Shown piece after piece: positions 2,920 through 42,839 of a DNA stretch of 45,686 nucleotides. A model generated the notes under the pieces. The model made no database searches and was not told the origin of the DNA. It saw only the letters and a program-made list of their open reading frames with translations. Position numbers and translations under genes: made by a program. This DNA is from a virus. Lineage: Duplodnaviria > Heunggongvirae > Uroviricota > Caudoviricetes. Within the stretch, counting starts at the first letter, position 1, and the number at the start of each line of letters is the position of its first letter. The stretch lies in the IMG/VR virus record IMGVR_UViG_2718217885_000013; one strand, 5' to 3'.

Positions 2920-5900
2920 TATGCAAGCCTCACAATATAGTTAAATGCGATGTTTTTGACGGTGTTTTCCGCGTTACCAGCAGCGTTAACGGTGATGGTG
3001 TGTCCATGTGAGCCAATCGCAACGGAGTGCGTATGAGCACCAATACCGACAGTATGTGCGTGTGCACCTGCGCTTGCAGCAGTACCCGATACAGAGTGCG
3101 TATGAGCGCCTGCAGAAGAAGTGTTAACACTGTATTTAGAATAATCAGGTGATCCACTTCCCGGAGCACCACTGGAACCACCTGAAACAAATGTCATCGA
3201 ATGGGTATGTGCACCGGCTGAAGCAGCCGTACCGCTAACACTATGGGTATGTGCACCAGTGTTATTCGTGGATTTAGTGCCGTAATCAAACGATGATGTG
3301 GTTTTCGTCCCCAAATCCGTACTGGATGCGCTGGCGCTGTGGGTGTGCGATTTAATGCCGTCCTGTTCCTGAGACAATACGGCACGACCACTGGCGGGCT
3401 TGCCCTTAATCGTCCAGCCACGCATATCAGGAATAACGCCTGACGGATAAGCCACTGCAAGTTTCGGGTATGCAGATTTGTCAAAAGTCTGCCCCTGCAT
3501 CAGGGCATAGCCAGACGGAACGGTATCTGATGGCCACGGGATTGGTGCGCCGACTGGGTAGCTTTCTGGTGGAAGATTTTTCGAGGTATAAACTTCTGCC
3601 CAGTCATCCTCAAAACCATAACCGTCTCTTGAAGAACGGTAGAACAGACCACCATTTCTGTAATGCGCCTTCATCTGCAGGGTCCGGCAACTTCCGACTC
3701 CGGTATAGAAGTTAACCAGAATATAGCTGTCGCCAGAGCGAGTGACATTGTAAGCGCCTGATTCGGCATTCCATGGAACGCCACCATCCGCATCGGCATA
3801 TGTATCCGTTGCCCTTCTGGCAAAAGCAGCCACATGCGCGGCGGTTAAAGTAATATCTTTGGAACCATCAAACTCAACACCAGAAACCCGTCTTGGCGTT
3901 TGCAGCTTTGTTGCTGTTAATGCATTACCGTTCAGACTTGCGGACAGTTTGGTTCCAATAACCAGTTCGCCGGTTGCGTTATCAATAGCAAACGGTCTTA
4001 ATGTATTCCAGCCACCATAAACATCACCTTGATTGGTAAGCAGCAGGTAAGTTTTAGCGCCATCATTACGCCATAATGCACCATACTCTCCACCTATCAT
4101 TCGAATCTGATTACCACCACGCGCTACAATTTCGTCTGTGGCAAAAAGTTTTTTGCACGACAAGTTATCGTTAACGATTAACGAATGAGACTCATAAAAA
4201 CCACGCCCACTCTTAAAATCAAGGATAACGTCCGCCGCGATACATTCAGTCGCTGGATTTGTTGCCCCAAACTTATAGGTCGTATCATTAACAACGAGAT
4301 CAGCACCAGGTGCGGATATTGACAGGCCATCTTCGATAAACGCAAAAACAGGGAAAGCAGCGCCATCAACATAGAACACAGAGCGCAAATCATCGCCCTT
4401 ATTACTCATCATTATTGAGTGGATGGCTCGTTCATTGTTTTGATATTGCCAGAACATTCCATAAGCATAACGCCCCCTGTCAGTCCAGCCACCAGGCATA
4501 ACAAATCCGTTAAACTCGCAGTTATTCATCGGATCGCCTGCGGTTCGCGTTGCCGTGGTGATAATGACCCTTGATGCCAGTTCGCTTACTGAGCCAGCAG
4601 AACGCATAACAACAACAGGGTAATATTTTCCAGATGTTGCACCTGCAGGAGCGTTAACCCGCACATAACGCATACCACGCTTATCAGCAAAGTCTGTTTT
4701 ACTGACCGCGTTAATGTTGTTCAGGAAGCGTCCCTTATCGGGTATATCAGTGCCGTTCTGGTCTTTCTGCAGACGTTTCTCTGCATTGTCATAGGCTGAT
4801 TTTACTGCCTTTGGCGTTGCCGCCAGCGTTTCAGACGTACTGTTGGTCGCACTGCTGAGCTGTACTATCCCCTTTTTCGTCGTGCTCGCATCCTCAAGCG
4901 CCACGGCGGATGCAATATCCTCTGCCCGTTTTGCTGCTGTCTCGGCGCGCGTTGCCGCGGATTCCGCCGTACTTTTGCTCTGAGCTGCCGCCGTCGCACT
5001 GCCAGCTGCCTCTGTCGCCTTCGTGGATGCCGTCGTGGCGCTGCCCTTCGCTGCTGACGCCTGTCTGGTCGCCTCATCTTTTGAAGCAGACGCCGATGAT
5101 GCCGATGACGCCGCCGAACTGGCTGACGATGCGGCAGCCGTTTTTGAGGATTCTGCGCTGGTTTCCGACGCTTTCGCGTTCGTTTCGGATGTCTTCGCTG
5201 CGGAAGCTGACCTCGCTGCTACCGTGGCCTGTTCAGTGGCTTCGCCAGCCTTCGTTGTGGCTGTTGAAGCGGATGATGCGGCGCTTTCTGCCGACTTTCC
5301 GGCAGCGGTGGCACTGGCTGAGGCCTGCCCGGCATTTGTTGACGCGGCGCTGGCAGATGAGGCAGCCGCTGTTTTTGAGTCTGCTGCTGCGGAGGCACTC
5401 TGTCCCGCTGCCGTCTCAGAAGACTTTGCGTTCGTCTCGGACGTTTTTGCCGCCTTCGCGGAAGTTCCTGCCGCTGTTGCCGAGGAGGCTGCACGACTGG
5501 CGCTCGAGGCTGCGTTCGTTTCTGATGATTTCGCTGCCTCTTTTGAAGCCGACGCATCCCTGGCTGAAGTGGCTGCTTCTGACGCTTTCGTGGTCGCGGT
5601 GGATGCAGAAGTGGCTGCTGATTGTTGTGACGCTGCCGCATTCGTTTCTGACGTTTTCGCCGCACCGGCACTGGTAGCCGCCGCGCTTTTTGAGGACTCT
5701 GCAGCGGCAGCACTTTTTGATGCTTCAGTGGCCTTTGCTGATGCCGTTCCTGCGCTGGAAGACGCTGACTGAGCAGATGATGCAGCCTGTCCGGCTGACG
5801 TGCTGGCGGCACGTGCTGAGCCTGCAGCATCGGTTGCATGGGTTGCCGCCTCACGGGCAGATGTGCTGGCATCACTGGCTGACTTCTTCGCGGCTGCCGT

Positions 5901-6333: not shown

Positions 6334-6933
6334 TCAGAACTTATAACCGACACCCACGATGAAACCGTCAGTGCGCCAGTCGCCACTGCCGGAGCCTTCA
6401 TAAGCAATATCAATGGCCACGGATTCGGTCGGGTTAAACTGCACGCCAGCTCCCCACGCCAGAGACGTGTTGCTGTGGCGACCGTCATCACTTCCGGTCA
6501 GCACATCGTGCGTTTTCCCCTTGTTGTCAGTTACGCGAAGATAATCCCCGGAGAAAGTCGACACACGGCTGTAAGCCACACCCGCCATCGCATACGCGCT
6601 GAACCATTCATTCACGCGCACAGACGGCCCCGCCATCACGCTGAACCAGCGGTTACGCACGGAATCTTCATGCCAGCGGGTATCGCTGTAATGGGTCAGC
6701 TGGCGATTCTTGTCTCCTGCATAGCTGAATGACGTCACCATCCCCAGTGTGTCCGTAAACTCATAACGGTATTTCACGTTAATCCCGTTCAGATCATCGC
6801 TGCCGGGAACGTTCGTCGAGGCATGAAGATACCCCGCGCTCAGCGTGGACTGATGTTCAGACGCCCATGCAGGCGCACCGGATACGGCCAGACAAATGGC
6901 TGCGGACAAAATGGCGGCATAAAGTTTACGCAT
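6334..6933 (-). CDS. lom: Outer membrane protein Lom (Ail/Lom family)
   Basis: 199-aa ORF with signal peptide and beta-barrel-type sequence; canonical position after J. Confidence 0.9.
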   Translation of the reverse strand: MRKLYAAILSAAICLAVSGAPAWASEHQSTLSAGYLHASTNVPGSDDLNGINVKYRYEFTDTLGMVTSFSYAGDKNRQLTHYSDTRWHEDSVRNRWFSVMAGPSVRVNEWFSAYAMAGVAYSRVSTFSGDYLRVTDNKGKTHDVLTGSDDGRHSNTSLAWGAGVQFNPTESVAIDIAYEGSGSGDWRTDGFIVGVGYKF

Positions 6934-6999: not shown

Positions 7000-10401
<3,402 letters not shown>

Positions 10402-29104: not shown

Positions 29105-29398
29105 ATGAAAAAAATGCTACTCGCTACTGCGCTGGCCCTGCTTATTACAGGATGTGCTCAACAGACATTTACTGTTCAAAACAAACAGACAGCAGTAGCA
29201 CCAAAGGAAACCATCACCCATCATTTCTTCGTTTCTGGAATTGGGCAGAAGAAAACTGTCGATGCAGCTAAAATTTGTGGCGGCGCAGAAAATGTTGTTA
29301 AAACAGAAACCCAGCAAACATTCGTAAATGGATTGCTCGGTTTTATTACTTTAGGCATTTATACTCCGCTGGAAGCGCGTGTGTATTGCTCAAAATAA
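29105..29398 (+). CDS. bor: Bor lipoprotein (serum-resistance factor)
   Basis: 97 aa with lipobox LITGC; matches lambda Bor. Confidence 0.9.
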   Translation: MKKMLLATALALLITGCAQQTFTVQNKQTAVAPKETITHHFFVSGIGQKKTVDAAKICGGAENVVKTETQQTFVNGLLGFITLGIYTPLEARVYCSK

Positions 29399-31188: not shown

Positions 31189-32286
31189 ATGAAAAAATTA
31201 ACAGTGGCAATTTCTGCTGTAGCTGCATCAGTACTGATGGCGATGTCTGCTCAGGCAGCTGAAATTTATAATAAAGACAGTAACAAGCTGGATCTGTACG
31301 GGAAAGTTAATGCCAAGCACTACTTTTCCTCTAACGATGCAGATGATGGTGATACTACTTATGTTCGTCTGGGCTTCAAAGGCGAAACCCAAATCAACGA
31401 TCAGCTGACTGGTTTCGGTCAGTGGGAATATGAATTCAAAGGCAACCGCGCTGAATCTCAAGGTTCCTCCAAAGACAAAACCCGTCTTGCATTTGCAGGC
31501 CTGAAATTCGGTGACTACGGCTCAATCGATTACGGCCGTAACTACGGTGTAGCATACGACATCGGTGCGTGGACTGACGTTCTGCCAGAATTCGGTGGCG
31601 ATACCTGGACCCAAACAGATGTGTTCATGACTGGTCGCACCACTGGTGTTGCAACCTATCGTAACAACGACTTCTTTGGTCTGGTTGATGGTCTGAACTT
31701 TGCTGCTCAGTACCAAGGCAAAAACGATCGTAGCGATTTCGATAACTACACCGAAGGTAACGGTGATGGCTTCGGTTTCTCTGCTACCTATGAATACGAA
31801 GGATTCGGTATCGGTGCAACTTATGCGAAATCTGATCGTACCGACACTCAAGTTAATGCAGGGAAAGTTCTTCCTGAAGTATTTGCTTCCGGTAAAAATG
31901 CAGAAGTTTGGGCCGCAGGTCTGAAATATGACGCTAACAACATTTACCTGGCCACTACCTATTCTGAAACCCAGAATATGACTGTATTTGCTGATCACTT
32001 CGTTGCTAATAAAGCTCAAAACTTCGAAGCTGTTGCACAATATCAGTTCGATTTCGGTCTGCGTCCGTCCGTTGCTTACCTGCAATCTAAAGGTAAGGAT
32101 CTTGGAGTATGGGGCGATCAGGACTTAGTCAAATATGTTGATGTAGGTGCAACCTATTACTTCAACAAAAATATGTCTACTTTCGTTGATTACAAAATCA
32201 ACCTGCTTGACAAAAATGACTTCACTAAAGCACTCGGTGTAAGCACTGATGACATCGTTGCTGTAGGTCTGGTTTACCAGTTCTAA
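31189..32286 (+). CDS. nmpC: Outer membrane porin NmpC (OmpC/OmpF/PhoE family), full length
   Basis: 365 aa with signal peptide and general-porin sequence ending in YQF; sits between Q and S, antisense to the late operon. Confidence 0.9.
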
Positions 32287-35385: not shown

Positions 35386-35880
35386 TCATTTCCAATTGCA
35401 AGACTGTGAAATTTTTTCCACAACCTTATCAATCTCAGACAAGTCAAACTCAACTACTTGCATAGTTGATCCATAAGGTTCAAACCCAAAAATAGCTTTT
35501 TTATGCTTAGCCAAGGTCTTTATAAATTGTATTGGTTGTGGAGCAAATGCAGAATCACCGCCTTCCCCACCTCCCCAAGCACTCTTGACCGGCTTTCCGC
35601 CATCTAACCGCACTGTAATTCTTGGGTTGTCCGAACCCATATAATCATTGAATGATAAATAGGCATCTGTTTTGTTATCACTACAACGCAACACCAGTGA
35701 AGTTGCACGATCAGTACCTGCTTTGTTATATGAATCTGGTGATAAATTAAGAGCCACAAAGTCAGTCTGGTCAGTCATTTTATTTATCTCAGACTTTGTT
35801 ATCCACGGCCCTAACTTCTCTACACCAGCATTTGCAGTAAACGAGGCACTTATGACAAAGGCTATAATAAATTTTCTCAT
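35386..35880 (-). CDS. Hypothetical secreted/periplasmic protein (moron)
   Basis: 164 aa with a typical Sec signal peptide (MRKFIIAFVISASFTANA); own terminator; no family recognised. Confidence 0.6.
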   Translation of the reverse strand: MRKFIIAFVISASFTANAGVEKLGPWITKSEINKMTDQTDFVALNLSPDSYNKAGTDRATSLVLRCSDNKTDAYLSFNDYMGSDNPRITVRLDGGKPVKSAWGGGEGGDSAFAPQPIQFIKTLAKHKKAIFGFEPYGSTMQVVEFDLSEIDKVVEKISQSCNWK

Positions 35881-36026
35881 AACCCTATCTCCTTGGATTT
35901 AAAGAACTAAATATTATCAAGTCTCTTGCCACTAGAAAACCCACTTTATTTCCAAACTCTGATGGCATTCCTGAAAATCCGCTTCATACTCACTTGCCCC
36001 GCCCTATCATCCTGAGTAGCTAACCG

Positions 36027-36200
36027 TTAAACAAACGTTCGCCAGACCTTACCATCAATGACCAGGATTCCTGCCCGCGCCATTTTTGCCGCAGCCTGAT
36101 TTATGCTGGTTAATGTCACACCTGTTGTCGCAGCAACGTCCGGCGCACAGAAGCTCTTGTGCGTCTCCAGATAATGAATAATTGCCTCTTTGCCCGTTAT
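36027..36200 (-). pseudogene. ren: ren remnant (start codon lost, truncated)
   Basis: Hand translation ITGKEAIIHYLETHKSFCAPDVAATTGVTLTSINQAAAKMARAGILVIDGKVWRTFV matches the lambda Ren N-terminus; the lambda ATG is ATA here and the frame stops after about 57 codons. Confidence 0.7.
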
Positions 36201-36898
36201 ACAGTTGCTCCTTTCAGTCCGAACTTCGCTTTGATTTCTGCGATCTTCGCCAGAGCCTGTGCACGATTTAGAGGCCTACCGCCCATGACAGGAAGTTGTT
36301 TTACTGGTTCAGGTATCGCCTCACCACGGTTAATTCGCGCGGTCATACAGGTCAGCTCATCGGCAGCTTTACGCCGTAATTCCGCGTCAGTCAGCGCATT
36401 GGCCCGCATGTTCTGGTACAGGTTGGTAACCAACCAGTAGTGCGCGTTTGATTTCCATGGATAAGACTCTGCGTCCGGATACAGGCCACGCTTCCGGCAA
36501 TACTCGTAAACCATATCAACCAGCTCGCTGGCGTTTGGCAGTCCGGCGGTAACGGATGCTTCTTCCCGGCACCAGGCGACAAACTGCCCGGGTGATGGCA
36601 GGAATGGTCGATTCTGCCGACGGGCTACGCGCATTCCTGCGTTAACCTGTTCCATTGTGGTGATCCCGTTTTCCCGGAAAGCCAGAACCCACTGGCGGCG
36701 GATTTCGTTCAGTTCGTTCTGGTCCCGGTTAGCCAGGCTCGCCGGGAAAGTTGCCAGTAACTGGCTGAACACACCGTTGATGATCCGCGCTACCTGCTGT
36801 ACCTGCGGCTTTTCGTCGTACTGTTCCGGCATGTTGTTGGCGATCCGGCGCATCTGCTCACGGTCAAAGTTAACCATCTGTGCGGCGATGTTTTTCAT
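36197..36898 (-). CDS. P: Replication protein P (DnaB helicase loader)
   Basis: 233 aa, near-identical to lambda P (MKNIAAQMVNFDREQMRRIANNMPEQYDEKPQVQQV). Confidence 0.95.
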   Translation of the reverse strand: MKNIAAQMVNFDREQMRRIANNMPEQYDEKPQVQQVARIINGVFSQLLATFPASLANRDQNELNEIRRQWVLAFRENGITTMEQVNAGMRVARRQNRPFLPSPGQFVAWCREEASVTAGLPNASELVDMVYEYCRKRGLYPDAESYPWKSNAHYWLVTNLYQNMRANALTDAELRRKAADELTCMTARINRGEAIPEPVKQLPVMGGRPLNRAQALAKIAEIKAKFGLKGATV

Positions 36899-37824
36899 AA
36901 ATCCACCCCATAAATCCAGTCAGTGTTTGTCAGGTCGAGTTTTGATTTTCCGGCTGTCACGCCAGCCTGTTGCTTGTTACGGTTGATTTCGAGCTGGGTC
37001 CACTTGTCGCGGAGTTTGGCCGGACTTAGCACGTTACCGGACCAGAAGTTGTCCTGGCATGCCCAGCGGAACAGCACGCACATGTCGCGGTGGTTACGTC
37101 CGTCACGTTCACGCATCAGGCGGATATCGTTAGCCCACCCTGCAAAATTCGGTTTTCTGGCTGATGGCGCGATGGTCTTCACCATGTCAAACATCCACTC
37201 TGCGGCGGTCAGGTCTTCTGCTGTCCCCCACCTGCTGCCGCTCTGAATTGCAGCATCTGGTTTCTCCACAGGAAGATCGTTTTCTGGTTGGTCAGAGGAT
37301 TCGCCAGAATTCTCGGACGAAAAAGGTTTTATATTGTCTTTTGTTAGTTTGTCTTTTGTGTTTACCTGATTCGGGTAAACGCCTTTACCTGATTTGGGTA
37401 AACTTTTCTTACCTGATTCAGGTAAATTTACCTCTTTCAGGTAAACTTTATTTTTCTTACCTGATTCGGGTAATGTTGACCATTCACTGACCACATTATT
37501 AATGCCGATATTCCGCCCGCTCTGAATAAGAATCCCACGCTTTACCAGAACGCTTTTTGCAGCAGAACACTTGTGCGGCAATATCCCGGTCAACTCGGAA
37601 AGTTGCTCGTTGCTCACCCAATCCAGTTTTTTATTAAAGCCATATGTTTTGCGCATGACAGCCAGGAAGACCAGAAGCTGGTGCTGTGTTAATCCGGCCA
37701 GCATCACAGCTTCCAGCAACTCATTTGCAATGCGCGTATAACCATCATCGAGATCTGCCACGCGCGGCTCCTTTTGTGCCGCATCCGGCACTGGAAAATT
37801 GAATATCTCAGCAGTGTTTGCCAT
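36895..37824 (-). CDS. O: Replication initiator O; alternative upstream start at 37914
   Basis: Lambda O-like N-terminus spacing from MANTAEIFNF with a GGGAGG Shine-Dalgarno; C-terminus conserved; iterons inside the gene; the track ORF begins 30 codons upstream with an ATG coupled to the preceding stop. Confidence 0.8.
   Translation of the reverse strand: MANTAEIFNFPVPDAAQKEPRVADLDDGYTRIANELLEAVMLAGLTQHQLLVFLAVMRKTYGFNKKLDWVSNEQLSELTGILPHKCSAAKSVLVKRGILIQSGRNIGINNVVSEWSTLPESGKKNKVYLKEVNLPESGKKSLPKSGKGVYPNQVNTKDKLTKDNIKPFSSENSGESSDQPENDLPVEKPDAAIQSGSRWGTAEDLTAAEWMFDMVKTIAPSARKPNFAGWANDIRLMRERDGRNHRDMCVLFRWACQDNFWSGNVLSPAKLRDKWTQLEINRNKQQAGVTAGKSKLDLTNTDWIYGVDL
37363..37474. repeat. Replication origin iterons: five copies of about 18 bp (TACCTGATTCGGGTAAAC type) next to an AT-rich stretch (37321-37362)
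   Basis: Direct repeats tacctgattcgggtaaac, tacctgatttgggtaaac, tacctgattcaggtaaat, tacctctttcaggtaaac, tacctgattcgggtaat read in the sequence, inside O. Confidence 0.85.
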
Positions 37825-37910
37825 AATTCCTCCCGCAATGAGTGTGTTACGATTTGCACCTGAAAGTCGGTTCTGTTCCCGCAGACCGACTTTCGCCATT
37901 TCTGAACCTG

Positions 37911-38450
37911 TCATATTGCCCCCAGCATGGTGGTCACCATCGCCATTAATGGACCAGCCAGATCCGGGTCCACACGAAACATCGACACAATACCTTCACT
38001 CATTTCCTTCAGTTTCTGGTGGCGTGGTGCGTTGAGAATGACAGCCTGTTTTGCCTCACTGAGTTCCTTTTCCATTTCAGCCAACCGAGTCATGAAGCTA
38101 TCCTGCTCAACCAGGTAACCGCGATATTCCAGCGGTAGTACCGCCAGAATTGCCGGGGTCAGTTCACGCACGTTATTTCGGTATTTTTCAGAATCGAATT
38201 TGTTATCGAGGAAGCGGAACAGCTTCTGGCGTGCACGGCTGACATCATCAGGGAAATCGATGGTGCCGTCGCCCTGCTCCCGATACTCATTCACAATGAG
38301 TGCGGCAACGACATCCTGATTATCTACAGCCGACCAGGCGCGGACGGCATCACGGATTTTTTCGTGGCCTGGAGCTTGTTTTGTTTGAGAACGATTTATC
38401 ACCGCAGTCGGAATAAATCCGCTAGTCTGTTGGTATGTAAGTGGTTGCAT
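37911..38450 (-). CDS. YdaT-like protein in the cII position
   Basis: 179 aa; AAGGAG Shine-Dalgarno; segment LTPAILAVLPLEYR recalls Rac YdaT; downstream of the Cro-like gene. Confidence 0.55.
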   Translation of the reverse strand: MQPLTYQQTSGFIPTAVINRSQTKQAPGHEKIRDAVRAWSAVDNQDVVAALIVNEYREQGDGTIDFPDDVSRARQKLFRFLDNKFDSEKYRNNVRELTPAILAVLPLEYRGYLVEQDSFMTRLAEMEKELSEAKQAVILNAPRHQKLKEMSEGIVSMFRVDPDLAGPLMAMVTTMLGAI

Positions 38451-38519
38451 AATTGACTCCTTTAGTTTGAATTGACTGTTAAGTTGATTGCTTATTGTTA
38501 AAGAGCGTGAAATGGAAAT

Positions 38520-38750
38520 TTAAGCTGCGTTCTTTTCGGTGTGTGGAAACAACTTCGGAAGATCCGGGCGAATCTGGTATGCCTTCACAACTCCACCAGT
38601 AGCCGTAACAATGCTGCCGACATGTTCAGGGGATACCTTTGCTTTGTTGTGAAGCCACTTATAGACGGCCTGCTGTGAAACTTCGCAGGCATCGCCTAGT
38701 TTCTTTTGTGAACCAACGATATTGATCGCTGTTTTGATTGCTGGGTTCAT
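38520..38750 (-). CDS. Cro-like HTH regulator (YdaS-type)
   Basis: 76 aa with HTH (GSQKKLGDACEVSQQAVYKWL); divergent from cI; GGAGG Shine-Dalgarno. Confidence 0.75.
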   Translation of the reverse strand: MNPAIKTAINIVGSQKKLGDACEVSQQAVYKWLHNKAKVSPEHVGSIVTATGGVVKAYQIRPDLPKLFPHTEKNAA

Positions 38751-38854
38751 AACAACCTCCGTGGTTAATCCGAATCAAGATTAAAACTATGGTTGTTTTT
38801 AGTCAACAACCATTTTCGTTTGATGAAATAAAACCTTGGTTGTACATTTGATCT
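38751..38854. promoter_or_regulatory. Right operator/promoter region (OR, PR, PRM)
   Basis: Repeated GGTTGTT/AACAACC half-sites including palindrome ATGGTTGTT-N7-AACAACCAT (38789-38813); candidate PR (TTGACT-17-TAATCT, minus strand) and PRM (TTGATG-17-TACATT, start near the cI ATG, implying a leaderless cI mRNA). Confidence 0.7.
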
Positions 38855-39544
38855 ATGAAAACAACACTCTCAGAAAGACTTAAAGAAGCCAGATTAGCGC
38901 GAGGCCTTACACAAAAGGCGCTTGGGGATTTGGTCGGGGTTAGCCAGGCTGCTATTCAGAAAATCGAAACAGGGAAAGCTAACCAAACAACTAAAATCGT
39001 GGAGATCGCGAACGCTTTGGGTGTGCGCGCAGAATGGTTATCTTCTGGCGTTGGAAATATGTCAGACAGTACAGTGCAACCAATACAATCAACTGTCAGC
39101 CATTCCAAATACTTCAAAATTGACGTTCTTGATATAGAAGTCAGTGCCGGGCCAGGTGTAATCAACCGTGAGTTTGTAGAAGTTCTACGCTCGGTTGAGT
39201 ACTCGTTTGACGATGCTCGTCACATGTTCGATGGCAGGAAGGCGGAAAATATCCGCATCATTAACGTGCGAGGTGACAGCATGTCAGGGACGATCGAACC
39301 AGGTGACCTGCTGTTCGTTGATATCACTGTTAAATCTTTCGACGGTGATGGCATCTATGCGTTTCTGTACGACGACACTGCCCATGTAAAACGTCTTCAA
39401 ATGATGAAGGATAAGCTGCTGGTTATCTCTGATAACAAGAGCTACTCGCCGTGGGACCCGATCGAGAAAGACGAGATGAACCGGGTGTTCATATTCGGTA
39501 AGGTCATTGGAAGCATGCCGCAGACGTACAGGAAGCATGGTTAA
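38855..39544 (+). CDS. cI: CI-type repressor (HTH plus LexA/S24 autocleavage domain)
   Basis: 229 aa; N-terminal HTH (LTQKALGDLVGVSQAAIQKIETGK); C-terminal S24-like region with GDSM and a later Lys. Confidence 0.9.
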   Translation: MKTTLSERLKEARLARGLTQKALGDLVGVSQAAIQKIETGKANQTTKIVEIANALGVRAEWLSSGVGNMSDSTVQPIQSTVSHSKYFKIDVLDIEVSAGPGVINREFVEVLRSVEYSFDDARHMFDGRKAENIRIINVRGDSMSGTIEPGDLLFVDITVKSFDGDGIYAFLYDDTAHVKRLQMMKDKLLVISDNKSYSPWDPIEKDEMNRVFIFGKVIGSMPQTYRKHG

Positions 39545-39773
39545 TTTATCTACGACTTAAGGGAGCGAAGGTTAAGGTTTATACCACTCGGATTAGATAT
39601 TGCACTAAATTCTCTATAAGAACGCCAAATCTGTTTGCATATTTCAGTAAATATTCTCGTTGTTAGCTGAGATTTGTTGCTACTGTCAGCAAAATGTCCC
39701 CCTATCTCGTAGCGGTTTTTATTTCGAATCATTATGTTAAGATGTTTCTGATTATAATGAATGGAAACATAAA

Positions 39774-40154
39774 ATGAGAAAAATCCTAATCGCTGTCATG
39801 ATGGCATCTGTATTGGCTGGGTGTGCTTCTTCAGGCAACCAGCAACTCAAAAATGAAACTGAAATTAGTGTCCAGTCTAAACTTCAGGAAGGTAAAACAA
39901 CCAAGAATGAGGTTAAATCTTACTTTGGTTCTCCTGATGCTGTTTCATATACTGACAGTGGAAACGAGATCTGGAAGTACGCCTTTGCAAAAGTAAAAGT
40001 TAATGGCACCACTTTTATTCCATTCTATGGATTATTCCATAATGGAACGAACGGTACGAAAAAAGAACTTACTATTCTTTTTAACGATGACACGATTAAG
40101 AAATACACAATGTCAGAAACCCAAATAAACTCGAAATCAGGTTGGGCTGACTGA
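39774..40154 (+). CDS. Lipoprotein with BamE (SmpA/OmlA)-like pattern, in the rex position
   Basis: 126 aa; lipobox LAGC; pattern G-K-T-x-x-E-V...FGSP...W-x-Y...LTILFN resembles BamE; has its own candidate -10 TATAAT at 39753-39758. Confidence 0.6.
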   Translation: MRKILIAVMMASVLAGCASSGNQQLKNETEISVQSKLQEGKTTKNEVKSYFGSPDAVSYTDSGNEIWKYAFAKVKVNGTTFIPFYGLFHNGTNGTKKELTILFNDDTIKKYTMSETQINSKSGWAD

Positions 40155-40162
40155 TAATCATA

Positions 40163-40189
40163 CCCGGCAACCGCGCCGGGTTTTCTTTT
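40163..40189 (+). terminator. Intrinsic terminator after the lipoprotein gene (end of the cI operon)
   Basis: CCCGGC-aaccgc-GCCGGG followed by TTTTCTTTT. Confidence 0.7.
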
Positions 40190-40280
40190 CCTCCCCCTCA
40201 TAACTCATACCGTCCAAAAAACCACCACACCTCACTTCAGTTATCGCTATGCGATGCAAGTCACAAAATAAATCCATCCT

Positions 40281-40357
40281 AAATACAACCAGTTATATTT
40301 AAAACAACCGACAAAACAACTTTTGTTGTTGACGATAAAACAACTATAGTTTTAAAT
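40281..40357 (+). promoter_or_regulatory. Left operator/promoter region (OL/PL)
   Basis: The same AACAACC/GGTTGTT half-sites as OR, including AACAAC-tttt-GTTGTT at 40315-40330; candidate PL TTGACG (40329-40334)-17-TTAAAT (40352-40357). Confidence 0.65.
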
Positions 40358-40361
40358 AAAT

Positions 40362-40413
40362 TCATCGCAACGACACAACGATACGGTAACCACCTGTTTC
40401 ACCGTTGCGATGA
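40362..40413 (+). other. Large hairpin (11-bp perfect stem, 29-nt loop) at the predicted 5' end of the PL transcript
   Basis: TCATCGCAACG ... CGTTGCGATGA read in the sequence; function unknown. Confidence 0.4.
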
Positions 40414-40634
40414 CCACTTAGATCCGCAGTTTGAATTTCAGCAGGCTTCGGGGAGTGCGAGGGGTGAAGCGGACGCGTGAACGTCGGTGTGACCAGCTGA
40501 AATCAACTCAACACTTCATACCTCAGTCGCTTCAACGAGGCGACTTAGTTATGACAACCGGCGGCCATCCACCGCCTGAATACGCGCAGAAGTCTCTATA
40601 TGTTCAGCAGCCCAGCTTACGGGCAGGAGTTTTT

Positions 40635-40841
40635 ATGGTTCATCAACATTACGGAACGCAGACCGTTAATCGAGGTGCGGTCATGCCAGGAATGCTGGTC
40701 AAACACAAAGATGGTACCTGGACTGCATCAGCTAATTTACGCGGACGGCTTTATCTGCATCGCGGCATCGAGCGCACTTATACCCGTGATTTGCTCGTGG
40801 AAGTTTTTCTCGACGGACGCGGTAACGGCCTGAATCGCTAA
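40635..40841 (+). CDS. Hypothetical early-left protein in the kil position; start uncertain (alternatives 40551 or 40431)
   Basis: ATG at 40635 has an AGGAG Shine-Dalgarno 5 nt upstream; the track ORF begins at a TTG; lambda homology resumes exactly at this ORF's stop. Confidence 0.4.
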   Translation: MVHQHYGTQTVNRGAVMPGMLVKHKDGTWTASANLRGRLYLHRGIERTYTRDLLVEVFLDGRGNGLNR

Positions 40842-40916
40842 TCCCCTTTCCTGTTTTCCTAATCAGCCTGGCATTTCGCGGGCAATATTTTCACAGCCAT
40901 TTTCAGGAGTTCAGCC

Positions 40917-41213
40917 ATGAACGCTTATTACATTCAGGATCGTCTTGAGGCTCAGAGCTGGGCGCGTCACTACCAGCAGATCGCCCGTGAAGAGAAAGAG
41001 GCAGAACTGGCAGACGACATGGAAAAAGGCCTGCCCCAGCACCTGTTTGAATCGCTATGCATCGATCATTTGCAACGCCACGGGGCCAGCAAAAAAGCCA
41101 TTACCCGTGCATTTGATGACGATGTTGAGTTTCAGGAGCGCATGGCGGAACACATCCGGTACATGGTTGAAACTATTGCTCACCATCAGGTTGATATTGA
41201 TTCAGAGGTATAA
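40917..41213 (+). CDS. gam: Gam, host RecBCD inhibitor (short GamS form)
   Basis: 98 aa near-identical to lambda GamS ([21 protein letters not shown]). Confidence 0.95.
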
Positions 41214-41218
41214 AACAA

Positions 41219-42004
41219 ATGAGTACTGCACTCGCAACGCTGGCAGGGAAGCTGGCTGAACGTGTCGGCATGGATTCTGTCGACCCACAGGAACTGATCA
41301 CCACTCTTCGCCAGACGGCATTTAAAGGTGATGCCAGCGATGCGCAGTTCATCGCATTGTTGATCGTCGCCAACCAGTACGGCCTTAATCCGTGGACGAA
41401 AGAAATTTACGCCTTCCCTGATAAGCAGAACGGCATCGTTCCGGTGGTGGGCGTTGATGGCTGGTCCCGCATCATCAATGAAAACCAGCAGTTTGATGGT
41501 ATGGACTTTGAGCAGGACAATGAATCCTGCACATGCCGGATTTACCGCAAGGACCGTAATCATCCGATCTGCGTTACCGAGTGGATGGATGAATGCCGCC
41601 GCGAACCATTCAAAACCCGCGAAGGCAGAGAAATCACGGGGCCGTGGCAGTCGCATCCCAAACGGATGTTACGTCATAAAGCCATGATTCAGTGTGCCCG
41701 TCTGGCCTTCGGATTTGCTGGTATCTATGACAAGGATGAAGCCGAGCGCATTGTCGAAAATACCGCATACACTGCAGAACGTCAGCCGGAACGCGACATC
41801 ACTCCGGTTAACGATGAAACCATGCAGGAGATTAACACTCTGCTGATCGCCCTGGATAAAACATGGGATGACGACTTATTGCCGCTCTGTTCCCAGATAT
41901 TTCGCCGCAACATTCGTGCATCGTCAGAACTGACACAGGCCGAAGCAGTAAAAGCTCTTGGATTCCTGAAACAGAAAGCCGCAGAGCAGAAGGTGGCAGC
42001 ATGA
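41219..42004 (+). CDS. bet: Bet, single-strand annealing recombinase
   Basis: 261 aa near-identical to lambda Bet. Confidence 0.95.
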
Positions 42005-42681
42005 CACCGGACATTATCCTGCAGCGTACCGGGATCGACGTGAGAGCTGTCGAACAGGGGGATGATGCGTGGCACAAATTACGGCTCGGCGTCATCACCG
42101 CTTCAGAAGTTCACAACGTGATAGCAAAGCCCCGCTCAGGAAAGAAGTGGCCTGACATGAAAATGTCCTACTTCCACACCCTGCTGGCTGAGGTTTGCAC
42201 CGGTGTGGCTCCGGAAGTTAATGCTAAGGCGCTGGCCTGGGGAAAACAGTACGAGAACGACGCCAGAGCCCTGTTTGAGTTTACTTCCGGCGTGAATGTT
42301 ACTGAATCCCCGATCATCTATCGCGACGAAAGTATGCGCACCGCCTGCTCTCCCGATGGTTTATGCAGTGACGGCAACGGCCTTGAACTGAAATGCCCGT
42401 TTACCTCCCGGGATTTCATGAAATTCCGGCTCGGTGGTTTCGAGGCCATAAAGTCGGCTTACATGGCCCAGGTGCAGTACAGCATGTGGGTGACGCGAAA
42501 AGATGCCTGGTACTTTGCCAACTATGACCCGCGCATGAAGCGTGAAGGCCTGCATTATGTCGTGATTGAGCAGGATGAAAAGTACATGGCGAGTTTTGAC
42601 GAGATGGTGCCGGAGTTCATCGAAAAAATGGACGAGGCACTGGCTGAAATTGGTTTTGTATTTGGGGAGCAATGGCGATGA
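42001..42681 (+). CDS. exo: Exo, lambda exonuclease
   Basis: 226 aa near-identical to lambda Exo. Confidence 0.95.
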
Positions 42682-42839
42682 AGCATCCTCACGATAATAT
42701 CCGGGTAGGCACGATCACTTTCGTCTACTCCGTTACAAAGCGAGGCTGGGTATTTCCCGGCCTTTCTGTTATCCGAAATCCCCTGAAAGCACAGCGGCTG
42801 GCTGAGGAGATAAATAATAAACGGGGGCTGTATGACTGA
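42678..42839 (+). CDS. Small hypothetical protein (53 aa), translationally coupled between exo and the methyltransferase
   Basis: ATG overlaps the exo stop (ATGA) and its stop overlaps the methyltransferase start (ATGACTGA); hand translation [53 protein letters not shown]. Confidence 0.5.

What the first reader, a model, noticed from the sequence alone, without database searches (positions are those of the whole stretch)
39774..40154. BamE-like lipoprotein occupies the rex (superinfection exclusion) position
Between cI and OL/PL, where lambda carries rexAB, this phage has one lipoprotein gene (lipobox LAGC) with a BamE/SmpA-OmlA-like pattern, its own candidate -10 element and an intrinsic terminator. 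Genes at this position are expressed in the lysogen and usually mediate exclusion or envelope modification; a BamE mimic could act on the outer-membrane assembly machinery or a phage receptor.
Basis: inference. Interest (0 to 1): 0.6.

Follow-up and report, generated by a model that had tools for sequence, protein, structure and literature searches.

The report
Prophage lipoprotein with a BamE fold
A lambda-like E. coli prophage carries, just after its repressor gene, a small mobile gene for an outer-membrane lipoprotein folded like the BamE assembly factor; its function is untested, it is most likely a lysogen-expressed envelope or anti-phage accessory, and it is probably not a working BamE.

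Summary
ORF 39774-40154 (+) encodes a 126-aa lipoprotein (lipobox L-A-G-C, Cys17). It lies between the S24 repressor cI (38855-39544) and the OL/PL operators (about 40279-40357). An intrinsic terminator follows at 40162-40191.

It is a swappable cargo cassette (39545 to about 40160, 36-38% GC). Sibling phages with the same backbone carry HipA/HipD, GevT/GevA or almost nothing there. The terminator belongs to the shared backbone.

The family is large (1,848 clusters at E<=1e-10) and under strong purifying selection. In all but one context inspected it is phage cargo, in one of two moron slots: after the repressor, or just upstream of the tape-measure gene.

Function is inferred, not shown. I favour an envelope-level exclusion or conversion factor that docks on the periplasmic face of an outer-membrane barrel. 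No paper describing it was found. It is a new member of a known kind, of moderate interest.

The parts
38520..38750 (-). cro-like regulator (YdaS family), divergent from cI
   Evidence: Pfam YdaS_toxin E 6e-17 and P22_Cro E 7e-5.
38781..38843 (.). OR operator region between cro and cI
   Evidence: Repeats of the TTAAAACTATGGTTGTTTT type, shared with the OL region (I2, I3, I8, I9, D7).
38855..39544 (+). cI-type repressor (HTH plus S24 peptidase)
   Evidence: Pfam Peptidase_S24 E 1e-18 and HTH_3 E 5e-13. Annotated cI in PhiR26_1. Found at 80% coverage or more in 1519 of 5426 complete E. coli genomes.
39545..40161 (+). Variable cargo cassette: a 229-bp leader plus the lipoprotein gene
   Evidence: Homology to sibling phages PhiR34_1, PhiR5_1 and PhiR47_2 stops at 39540-39544 and resumes at 40155-40163. 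GC is 36-38% against 45-53% in the flanks. The whole 610 bp occurs at 99% identity or more in 68 of 5426 E. coli genomes.
39696..39726 (+). Degenerate remnant of an upstream terminator hairpin plus T-run
   Evidence: Several relatives have a G+C-rich hairpin plus U-run here: S107, Citrobacter, Enterobacter and phage RAH1. The Serratia locus L023 did not fold into one. The window copy folds weakly (z -1.4).
39738..39743 (+). Candidate -10 element TAAGAT (conserved TAnnAT)
   Evidence: T, A, A and T are invariant in nine loci from both genomic slots. Inference only; no transcription start has been mapped.
39753..39758 (+).
   Evidence: Read from the sequence. It is TGCAAT in relatives. It would leave a leader of only about 10 nt.
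39774..40154 (+). Lipoprotein gene, 126 aa, BamE (SmpA/OmlA) fold
   Evidence: (PHROG 3135, E 6e-48).
39774..39824 (+). Signal peptide and lipobox L-A-G-C (Cys17 codon at 39822-39824)
   Evidence: Read from the sequence. Cys17 is invariant in alignments A2 and A5.
40005..40046 (+). Family-specific insertion (residues 78-91, TTFIPFYGLFHNG) that BamE lacks
   Evidence: hhalign shows a gap in BamE here. I82, P83, G86 and G91 are invariant in A2. It is among the best-conserved blocks in 101 diverse members. Block-mean pLDDT is 53-68 over residues 71-90, so its shape is uncertain.
40162..40191 (+). Intrinsic terminator of the immunity operon (backbone, equivalent to t_imm)
   Evidence: Shared by sibling phages whatever their cargo.
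40279..40357 (+). OL operators and candidate PL (TTGACG 40329-34, 17-nt spacer, TTAAAT 40352-57)
   Evidence: Operator copies match OR. The promoter hexamers are my reading of the sequence and are an inference.
40635..40841 (+). KilR-like cell-division inhibitor, the first annotated gene of the leftward early operon
   Evidence: RefSeq annotates a 68-aa 'phage encoded cell division inhibitor protein'. GenBank PhiR26_1 annotates a 125-aa 'Kil'. The 136-aa ORF 40431-40838, which contains it, has no Pfam hit.

Best explanation
The feature is a moron: a self-contained cargo gene dropped between the prophage repressor and the terminator of the immunity operon.

Shown: it encodes a secreted protein with a lipobox, and the AlphaFold2 model of that protein has the BamE (SmpA/OmlA) alpha-alpha-beta-beta-beta fold plus a conserved FIPxxGxFxxG insertion. 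It is under strong purifying selection. It moves between phages as a unit and sits in two classic moron slots.

Inferred, step 1: it is made in the lysogen. Transcription would come by read-through from the cI promoter (no good terminator separates it from cI in this phage), from its own conserved TAnnAT promoter, or from both.

Inferred, step 3 (the least certain): it docks on the periplasmic face of an outer-membrane beta-barrel. BamE does this on BamA and TpgA-N does it on AtaA. The docking would change what that barrel does at the surface or during DNA entry, so that the lysogen resists other phages. This would work like the unrelated exclusion lipoproteins Llp (FhuA) and Rtp45 (LptD).

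The high conservation across genera, and the lack of linkage to the carrier phage's own receptor-binding domain, point to a conserved host target rather than a fast-evolving phage protein.
For: The cassette boundaries fall at the cI stop codon and at the backbone terminator. The same slot holds HipA/HipD, GevT/GevA or a near-empty remnant in sibling phages. GC is low.

All 10 Citrobacter and Enterobacter contexts, and Salmonella phage S107, place the gene on the repressor's strand just downstream of it.

Serratia (70% identical), Pantoea, Klebsiella phage RAH1, a Pseudomonas phage and an Alteromonas phage place it in the tail-gene module upstream of the tape-measure gene: directly upstream in Pantoea and RAH1, and within a few short ORFs of it in the others. 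In two of the three Serratia loci it sits among toxin-antitoxin-type morons. That is the HK97 gp15 exclusion-moron slot (PMC3594210).

Llp and Rtp45 set the precedent for periplasm-facing exclusion lipoproteins (PMC9586334, PMC12685063). The cI-to-N hotspot holds rexAB and bstA and is highly transcribed in lysogens (PMC8585504).

dN/dS is about 0.05. A conserved TAnnAT follows an upstream terminator in several relatives.
Against: There are no functional data for any family member. PADLOC finds nothing and PHROG 3135 has unknown function. No paper on phage BamE-like lipoproteins turned up.

Brenes and Laub's records name other defence genes in these phages but leave this one as a putative lipoprotein. 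That is weak negative evidence, since I could not read their paper.

Known exclusion lipoproteins sit beside the receptor-binding gene and track the receptor. This one does neither.

The BamE/BLIP-like fold is used for many unrelated jobs, including OsmE, BLIP and the T6SS immunity protein BtiO.

The prophage already carries other envelope morons with no anti-phage role: Bor and a porin, and a Lom-like ORF by synteny with PhiR26_1. A non-defence role is therefore quite possible.
Confidence: 0.42

Rival explanations
1. Host-fitness or virulence conversion factor with no anti-phage role. The lipoprotein would strengthen or alter the envelope of the lysogen, for example in osmotic or envelope stress tolerance, serum resistance or adhesion. 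Lambda Bor and Lom, and the BamE-fold lipoprotein OsmE, do this kind of thing.
Against: Both slots it occupies are dominated by anti-phage cargo in the examples seen (PMC8585504; PMC3594210). The sequence gives no direct evidence of any stress or virulence role.
Confidence: 0.25
2. A true BamE mimic or private BAM accessory. The protein would bind BamA/BamD in place of, or beside, BamE. It would retune outer-membrane protein assembly, either to lower receptor levels or to help assemble the prophage's own barrels (the porin, Lom, an OmpT-like protease).
Against: The N-terminal extension with the conserved Y28 and with P30 is deleted. None of Y37, L63, M64, D66, F68 or R78 is conserved. The true BamE equivalog model does not match. 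TpgA-N shows that this fold can bind other barrels and not BAM (PMC12523085). The alignment in loops is uncertain, so this evidence is not decisive.
Confidence: 0.12
3. A periplasmic inhibitor or immunity protein. The domain would bind and neutralise an incoming periplasm-acting enzyme or toxin. Candidates are a tail-associated peptidoglycan hydrolase of a superinfecting phage, a T6SS effector or a colicin.
Against: BLIPs are tandem repeats of the unit, whereas this protein is a single unit. No cognate toxin gene lies nearby. High conservation fits poorly with a fast-evolving phage or toxin target.
Confidence: 0.1

Closest known systems
BamE (SmpA/OmlA), lipoprotein subunit of the BAM complex
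   Different: It is prophage cargo rather than a core gene, and the host keeps its own bamE. It lacks the N-terminal extension with Y28/P30 and the six aligned BamA/BamD contact residues. It has a 12-residue conserved insertion. It falls below the Pfam cutoff and does not match the NCBIfam BamE equivalog.
TpgA N-terminal domain (SmpA/OmlA-like) bound to the AtaA autotransporter barrel (PDB 9VNJ)
   Different: TpgA is not a lipoprotein moron. It carries an OmpA_C peptidoglycan-binding domain and is encoded in an operon with its partner. The phage protein is a single domain with no partner gene nearby.
Superinfection-exclusion lipoproteins Llp (T5, FhuA), Rtp45 (Rtp, LptD) and Cor (phi80, N15, HK022; FhuA)
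   Same: Small phage-encoded lipoproteins. Llp and Rtp45 sit on the periplasmic side of the outer membrane and act on an outer-membrane barrel to stop further infection (PMC9586334, PMC12685063; Cor from PMC3594210). This is the proposed mode of action.
   Different: There is no sequence relationship; the PHROG Cor hit covers only the signal peptide (E 0.02). Those genes lie beside the receptor-binding gene and match its receptor. This gene sits by the repressor or the tape-measure gene and is shared by phages whose J ends differ. No phenotype is known.
Cargo of the cI-to-PL hotspot: lambda rexAB, BTP1 bstA, and HipA/HipD and GevT/GevA in PhiR phages
   Same: Same genomic slot, same strand as the repressor, upstream of the shared terminator, and presumably co-expressed in the lysogen (PMC8585504).
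   Different: Lambda RexAB (sensor plus membrane channel) and BstA act by abortive infection (PMC8585504), and HipA/HipD and GevT/GevA are annotated as toxin-antitoxin pairs. This is a single exported lipoprotein with no homology to any of them.
HK97 gp15 moron
   Same: Relatives of this gene (70% identical in Serratia) occupy the gp15 position between the tail chaperone genes and the tape-measure gene (PMC3594210). Both have the moron layout, and a promoter and terminator are inferred here.
   Different: gp15 is an inner-membrane YebO-like protein, not a lipoprotein, and is unrelated in sequence.

Membership tests
BamE (BAM complex subunit) | Match to Pfam PF04355 above the gathering score | tested here: not met
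   21.8 bits against a cutoff of 23.2, E 1.6e-4. However, 72 of 101 family members match at E<=0.001, and the Alteromonas-branch members carry the domain in the precomputed table.
BamE (BAM complex subunit) | alpha-alpha-beta-beta-beta SmpA/OmlA fold | tested here: met
BamE (BAM complex subunit) | Match to the NCBIfam BamE equivalog (NF008585 / PRK11548) | tested here: not met
   Not among the hits for the window protein. Only 3 of 101 relatives hit it, best E 1e-4.
BamE (BAM complex subunit) | N-terminal extension with conserved Tyr28 that contacts BamA turn 2 | tested here: not met
   hhalign places an 11-residue deletion over E24-Q34 of BamE, which includes Y28 and P30. The role of these residues is taken from bioRxiv 10.1101/2024.10.31.621230.
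BamE (BAM complex subunit) | BamA/BamD contact residues Y37, L63, M64, D66, F68, R78 | tested here: not met
   They align to Q23, D55, A56, T60, S62 and A72. Loop alignment is uncertain.
BamE (BAM complex subunit) | Core chromosomal gene | tested here: not met
   Prophage cargo in 68 of 5426 E. coli genomes. In Oceanisphaera a separate BamE-domain gene lies beside smpB in the same locus, while this homologue sits in an adjacent inserted element.
BamE (BAM complex subunit) | Physical association with BamA and BamD | not testable with these tools
   Needs pull-down, crosslinking or multimer modelling.
Moron (Juhala et al. 2000; Cumby et al. 2012) | Extra DNA between genes that are adjacent in related phages | tested here: met
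   Sibling phage PhiR34_1 has about 125 bp in the slot. Others carry different cargo. The flanks are 96-97% identical.
Moron (Juhala et al. 2000; Cumby et al. 2012) | Base composition differs from the neighbours | tested here: met
   36-38% GC against 45-53%.
Moron (Juhala et al. 2000; Cumby et al. 2012) | Own promoter | tested here: inconclusive
   A conserved TAnnAT lies 30 nt upstream of the ATG in nine loci, and follows a terminator hairpin in several of them. TATAAT is at 39753-58. No good -35 is present and the consensus scan found nothing on the + strand.
Moron (Juhala et al. 2000; Cumby et al. 2012) | Own terminator | tested here: inconclusive
   A strong terminator follows the gene and a similar hairpin follows homologues elsewhere. 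In this phage, however, it is backbone sequence shared with siblings that carry other cargo.
Moron (Juhala et al. 2000; Cumby et al. 2012) | Expressed from the repressed prophage | not testable with these tools
   Needs RNA-seq or a reporter in the lysogen.
Superinfection-exclusion lipoproteins (Cor, Llp, Rtp45 type) | Lipobox signal peptide and outer-membrane sorting | tested here: met
   L-A-G-C with Ala at +2, read from the sequence. Cys is invariant. Outer-membrane sorting is inferred from the +2 rule.
Superinfection-exclusion lipoproteins (Cor, Llp, Rtp45 type) | Sequence homology to a known member | tested here: not met
   The PHROG Cor family hit covers only residues 1-29, E 0.02. No Llp or Rtp45-like match appeared in the PDB sequence search.
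Superinfection-exclusion lipoproteins (Cor, Llp, Rtp45 type) | Linked to the phage's receptor-binding protein and receptor type | tested here: not met
   The gene is about 30 kb from J. The window phage and PhiR26_1 share the cassette (99.2% amino-acid identity), but their J proteins diverge strongly over the last 130 residues or so.
Superinfection-exclusion lipoproteins (Cor, Llp, Rtp45 type) | Blocks adsorption or DNA entry when expressed alone | not testable with these tools
   Needs an experiment.
RexAB or other catalogued defence systems | Homology to a catalogued defence protein | tested here: not met
   PADLOC-DB gave 0 families at E<=10.

The most novel reading that the evidence does not exclude
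The lipoprotein docks on BamA roughly where BamE does, but through its own surface (the FIPxxGxFxxG insertion). From the periplasmic side it would change BamA's surface loops or gating. This would exclude phages that use BamA as receptor; from my own knowledge, unchecked here, short-tailed Stx phages use BamA/YaeT. Alternatively it would bias BAM towards assembling the prophage's own barrels. It would then be a phage-encoded regulator of the essential outer-membrane assembly machine.
Probability: 0.08. Interest if true: 0.8.

Novelty: new member of a known kind. Interest (0 to 1): 0.4.

Why it matters
If the proposed role is right, this would be a new and very widespread family of envelope-acting prophage accessory proteins. 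The family comprises 1,848 clusters (50% identity) at E<=1e-10.

It would show that phages have borrowed the BamE module, a natural binder of the periplasmic face of outer-membrane barrels, for lysogenic conversion or exclusion.

It also matters for annotation. RefSeq names these genes 'outer membrane protein assembly factor BamE', which overstates what is known and could inflate counts of bamE paralogues.

The gene is small and self-contained. Close relatives of this prophage exist as cultivable phages (PhiR26_1 and the PhiR panel) that differ only in the cargo of this slot, so the question is directly testable.

Tried and rejected
- **Brenes and Laub 2025** (source of the PhiR phages): not held. 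Whether they tested this gene is unknown.
- **Kumar and Konovalova 2023** (BamE contact residues): not held. I took the residues from a preprint that cites it.
- **Literature searches** for phage BamE/OmlA lipoproteins found nothing relevant.
- **Rfam scan** of 38400-41000 gave only a chance sub-threshold CRISPR-repeat hit, so there is no known RNA element in the cassette leader.
- **The 60-aa antisense ORF** 39550-39732 has a 10-of-12 promoter-like site upstream. It has no homologue in the phage collection outside PhiR26_1 and is unannotated in RefSeq. I treat it as spurious.
- **The 176-bp leader** (39545-39720) occurs only together with this cassette. Its origin is unknown.
- **A pseudogene or chance ORF** is rejected by dN/dS of about 0.05.
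- **Homology to Cor** is rejected, because the hit covers only the signal peptide.
- **A chromosomal core gene of Citrobacter or Enterobacter**, which high contig counts suggested, is rejected. All 10 contexts inspected are prophage immunity regions.
- **Multimer modelling** with BamA/BamD or candidate receptors could not be run.

Full report
**What is there**

The window is a lambda-like E. coli prophage. Its immunity and early-left region (35956-42834) is 98.4% identical to Escherichia phage PhiR26_1 (PV340555.1). Other modules differ, so it is a mosaic relative and not the same phage.

On the + strand the order is as follows:
- a cro-like YdaS gene, 38520-38750 on the minus strand;
- OR operators;
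- cI, 38855-39544 (HTH plus S24 peptidase);
- the 126-aa ORF, 39774-40154;
- a hairpin terminator, 40162-40191;
- OL/PL;
- a KilR-like gene, then gam, bet and exo.

OL is placed by sequence. The 19-bp site at 38781-38799 recurs at 40337-40355, reverse-complemented and 95% matched. More copies lie at 40279-91 and 40309-27.

**It is a real gene**

Against homologues from Salmonella phage S107, Citrobacter, Enterobacter and Serratia, synonymous sites are saturated (pS 0.7-1.0). Non-synonymous differences are only 0.11-0.18, giving dN/dS of about 0.05. Most variation is in the signal peptide, and Cys17 is invariant.

**It is a cargo cassette in a hotspot**

Sibling phages with the same backbone align at 96-97% up to the cI stop (39540-39544) and again from 40155-40163 onward. 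Between those points they differ:
- PhiR5_1 carries HipA/HipD.
- PhiR47_2 carries GevT/GevA.
- PhiR34_1 carries only about 125 bp, which looks like the tail end of the Gev cassette.

It therefore serves whatever cargo is present, like lambda t_imm.

The cassette is 36-38% GC against 45-53% in the flanks. This repressor type occurs in 1519 of 5426 complete E. coli genomes. The lipoprotein cassette occurs in 68, always on the chromosome and at 99% identity or more. The two genomes I inspected have the same layout.

**Expression signals**

Only the last 45-60 bp before the ATG travel with the gene in other genera. In several relatives a G+C-rich hairpin plus U-run lies just upstream of this block: S107, Citrobacter, Enterobacter and phage RAH1. 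The Serratia locus L023 did not fold into one. In the window that hairpin is degenerate.

Within the block a TAnnAT (window TAAGAT, 39738-43) is invariant in nine loci from both genomic slots. A TGG at 39762-64, the likely ribosome-binding site, is invariant too.

It is TGCAAT in relatives and would leave almost no leader.

No convincing -35 is present, and the consensus scan found nothing on the + strand. An own promoter is therefore plausible but unproven. In this phage, read-through from the cI promoter is also likely, because no good terminator intervenes.

**Fold and family**

| Test | Result |
|---|---|
| Pfam BamE PF04355 | E 1.6e-4, 21.8 bits, cutoff 23.2 |
| Family profile against PDB sequences | BamE ranks first, weakly (E 0.025) |
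| hhalign against E. coli BamE | 90.9% probability, 81 columns |
| AlphaFold2 model (47-sequence alignment) | mean pLDDT 78.9, core above 90 |

Membership of the BamE family proper is not supported:
- The alignment deletes 11 residues of the BamE N-terminal extension, including the conserved Y28 and P30.
- BamE residues Y37, L63, M64, D66, F68 and R78 are reported to contact or crosslink BamA/BamD. They align to Q23, D55, A56, T60, S62 and A72.
- The NCBIfam BamE equivalog does not match.

The family has its own signature instead: a 12-residue insertion with an invariant FIP...G...G motif. It is among the best-conserved blocks in 101 diverse members, but it is modelled with low confidence.

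The family is large. There are 5,771 clusters (50% identity) at E<=0.001 and 1,848 at E<=1e-10. Of 101 sampled members, 72 hit the Pfam BamE domain.

**Where relatives sit**

- All 10 places read for Citrobacter and Enterobacter homologues, and Salmonella phage S107, are lambdoid or Rac-like prophage immunity regions. The gene lies on the repressor's strand, with zero to two genes in between.
- Serratia (70% identical), Pantoea, Klebsiella phage RAH1, a Pseudomonas phage and an Alteromonas phage carry it in the tail-gene module upstream of the tape-measure gene. It is directly upstream in Pantoea and RAH1, and within a few short ORFs of it in the others. In two of the three Serratia loci it sits among toxin-antitoxin-type morons. 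That is the HK97 gp15 exclusion-moron slot (PMC3594210).
- Other contexts are a metagenomic phage contig beside a divergent switch and an element inserted next to smpB in Oceanisphaera, with a separate BamE-domain gene nearby.
- One Chromohalobacter locus is ambiguous.

The gene is therefore mobile phage cargo found in two canonical moron slots.

**How it most likely works**

Shown: it has a lipobox signal and a predicted BamE fold, it is strongly constrained, and it moves as phage cargo in slots that hold lysogen-expressed and often anti-phage genes (rexAB and bstA, PMC8585504; Hip and Gev here; gp15).

Inferred:
- It is expressed in the lysogen.
- It is anchored in the outer membrane facing the periplasm, because +2 is Ala.
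- It docks on the periplasmic face of an outer-membrane barrel.

The fold has two such precedents: BamE on BamA, and TpgA-N on the AtaA barrel, the latter explicitly not a BAM subunit (PMC12523085).

Phage exclusion lipoproteins Llp and Rtp45 work from that same side, on FhuA and LptD (PMC9586334, PMC12685063).

The window phage and PhiR26_1 share the cassette, yet their J receptor-binding ends diverge strongly over the last 130 residues or so. The carriers also have diverse tails. The target is therefore unlikely to be the carrier's own receptor. High conservation across genera suggests a conserved host component.

I put this explanation at about 0.4. The rivals are a non-defence envelope fitness factor (0.25), a genuine BAM modulator (0.12) and a periplasmic inhibitor or immunity protein (0.10).

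**Against**

No member of the family has functional data. PADLOC gives nothing and PHROG 3135 has unknown function. The literature searches found nothing. The depositors of PhiR26_1 named PD-lambda-1 in that record, and Hip and Gev in sibling records, but left this gene as a putative lipoprotein.

**Novelty and verdict**

The gene is already in databases. RefSeq calls it 'outer membrane protein assembly factor BamE', a name the residue-level comparison does not support.

As a phage moron family with a BamE fold it appears undescribed in the library I could search. It fits a known kind, the envelope-acting lysogenic-conversion or exclusion lipoprotein, so I rate it a new member of a known kind with moderate interest (0.4).

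The most novel reading still open is a phage-encoded ligand of BamA that excludes BamA-dependent phages or retunes barrel assembly. I give it about 8%.

Noticed in passing
window 35386-35880 (-): At the hotspot next to ren, PhiR26_1 carries the defence gene PD-lambda-1. This window instead has a 164-aa ORF with a weak VasI (type VI secretion) Pfam match (E 3e-6, 27.4 bits against a cutoff of 26.5). The window is thus a mosaic relative of PhiR26_1 with different cargo here.
   Followed up: partly
window 31189-32286 (+), 29105-29398 (+), 6334-6933 (-): The prophage carries several other envelope-directed accessory genes. There is a full porin (Porin_1, E 2e-156) and Bor lipoprotein (E 1e-30). 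By synteny with PhiR26_1, a Lom-like ORF lies just after J. The Lom assignment was not checked by Pfam.
   Followed up: partly
window 40360-40841: No N-type antiterminator gene is annotated between PL and the first early-left gene. GenBank annotates a 125-aa 'Kil' and RefSeq a 68-aa cell-division inhibitor (40635-40841). The 136-aa ORF 40431-40838 has no Pfam hit but contains an arginine-rich KRTRERR stretch near its start. An inverted repeat CGCAACG...CGTTGCG lies at about 40366-40409. How early-left transcription is antiterminated is unclear.
   Followed up: partly
window 37911-38750: The genes labelled Cro and cII in the PhiR26_1 record are YdaS-family (E 6e-17) and YdaT-family (E 4e-30) proteins. 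The switch region is therefore Rac-prophage-like rather than lambda-like.
   Followed up: no
window 39641-39648 and 39858-39865; protein P0101: One database protein, from a 679-bp NCBI contig, fuses the first 31 residues of the antisense ORF 39550-39732 to the lipoprotein from residue 32. The junction falls at an 8-bp inverted repeat (ACTGAAAT). It is either an assembly artefact or a rare inversion of the promoter-proximal segment.
   Followed up: no
window 39751-39780 (-) and 39550-39732 (-): The best promoter-like match in the region (TTCTCA, 18-nt spacer, TATAAT; 10 of 12) is on the minus strand and points at a 60-aa antisense ORF. That ORF has no homologue in the phage collection outside PhiR26_1 and is unannotated in RefSeq. 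It is probably spurious.
   Followed up: yes
E. coli ET201, NZ_CP100994.1 around 3597643-3599028: In one of the 68 genomes the cassette match is split into two pieces with an IS1B transposase annotated under it, so an IS1 element appears to interrupt the cassette or its leader.
   Followed up: no
L003-L012 at 6410-6722 (-); L002 at 3423-3650 (-): In Citrobacter, Enterobacter and Salmonella prophages a small convergent ORF (68-75 aa, no Pfam hit) always lies immediately downstream of the lipoprotein gene. The window has no counterpart.
   Followed up: no
L023-L025 at 6381-6668 (+): In Serratia prophages the lipoprotein gene is followed, with overlapping stop and start codons, by a 95-aa ORF just before the tape-measure gene. 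In two of the three loci it also sits near SocA_Panacea or YafO toxin-antitoxin-type morons. The 95-aa ORF could be a partner or simply another moron.
   Followed up: no
L017 (PhiR34_1) at 1341-1467: The near-empty slot of PhiR34_1 shares about 40 bp just before the terminator with the GevT/GevA phage PhiR47_2. This suggests it arose by deletion of that cassette.
   Followed up: partly
window 7003-7400 (-): The last 130 residues or so of the J tail-tip protein differ strongly from both PhiR26_1 and lambda; over the last 250 residues identity to lambda is 62.6%. They are 89% identical to J of long-tailed Stx-converting phages and 98.8% identical to phage 2H10. The receptor is therefore probably not LamB.
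   Followed up: partly
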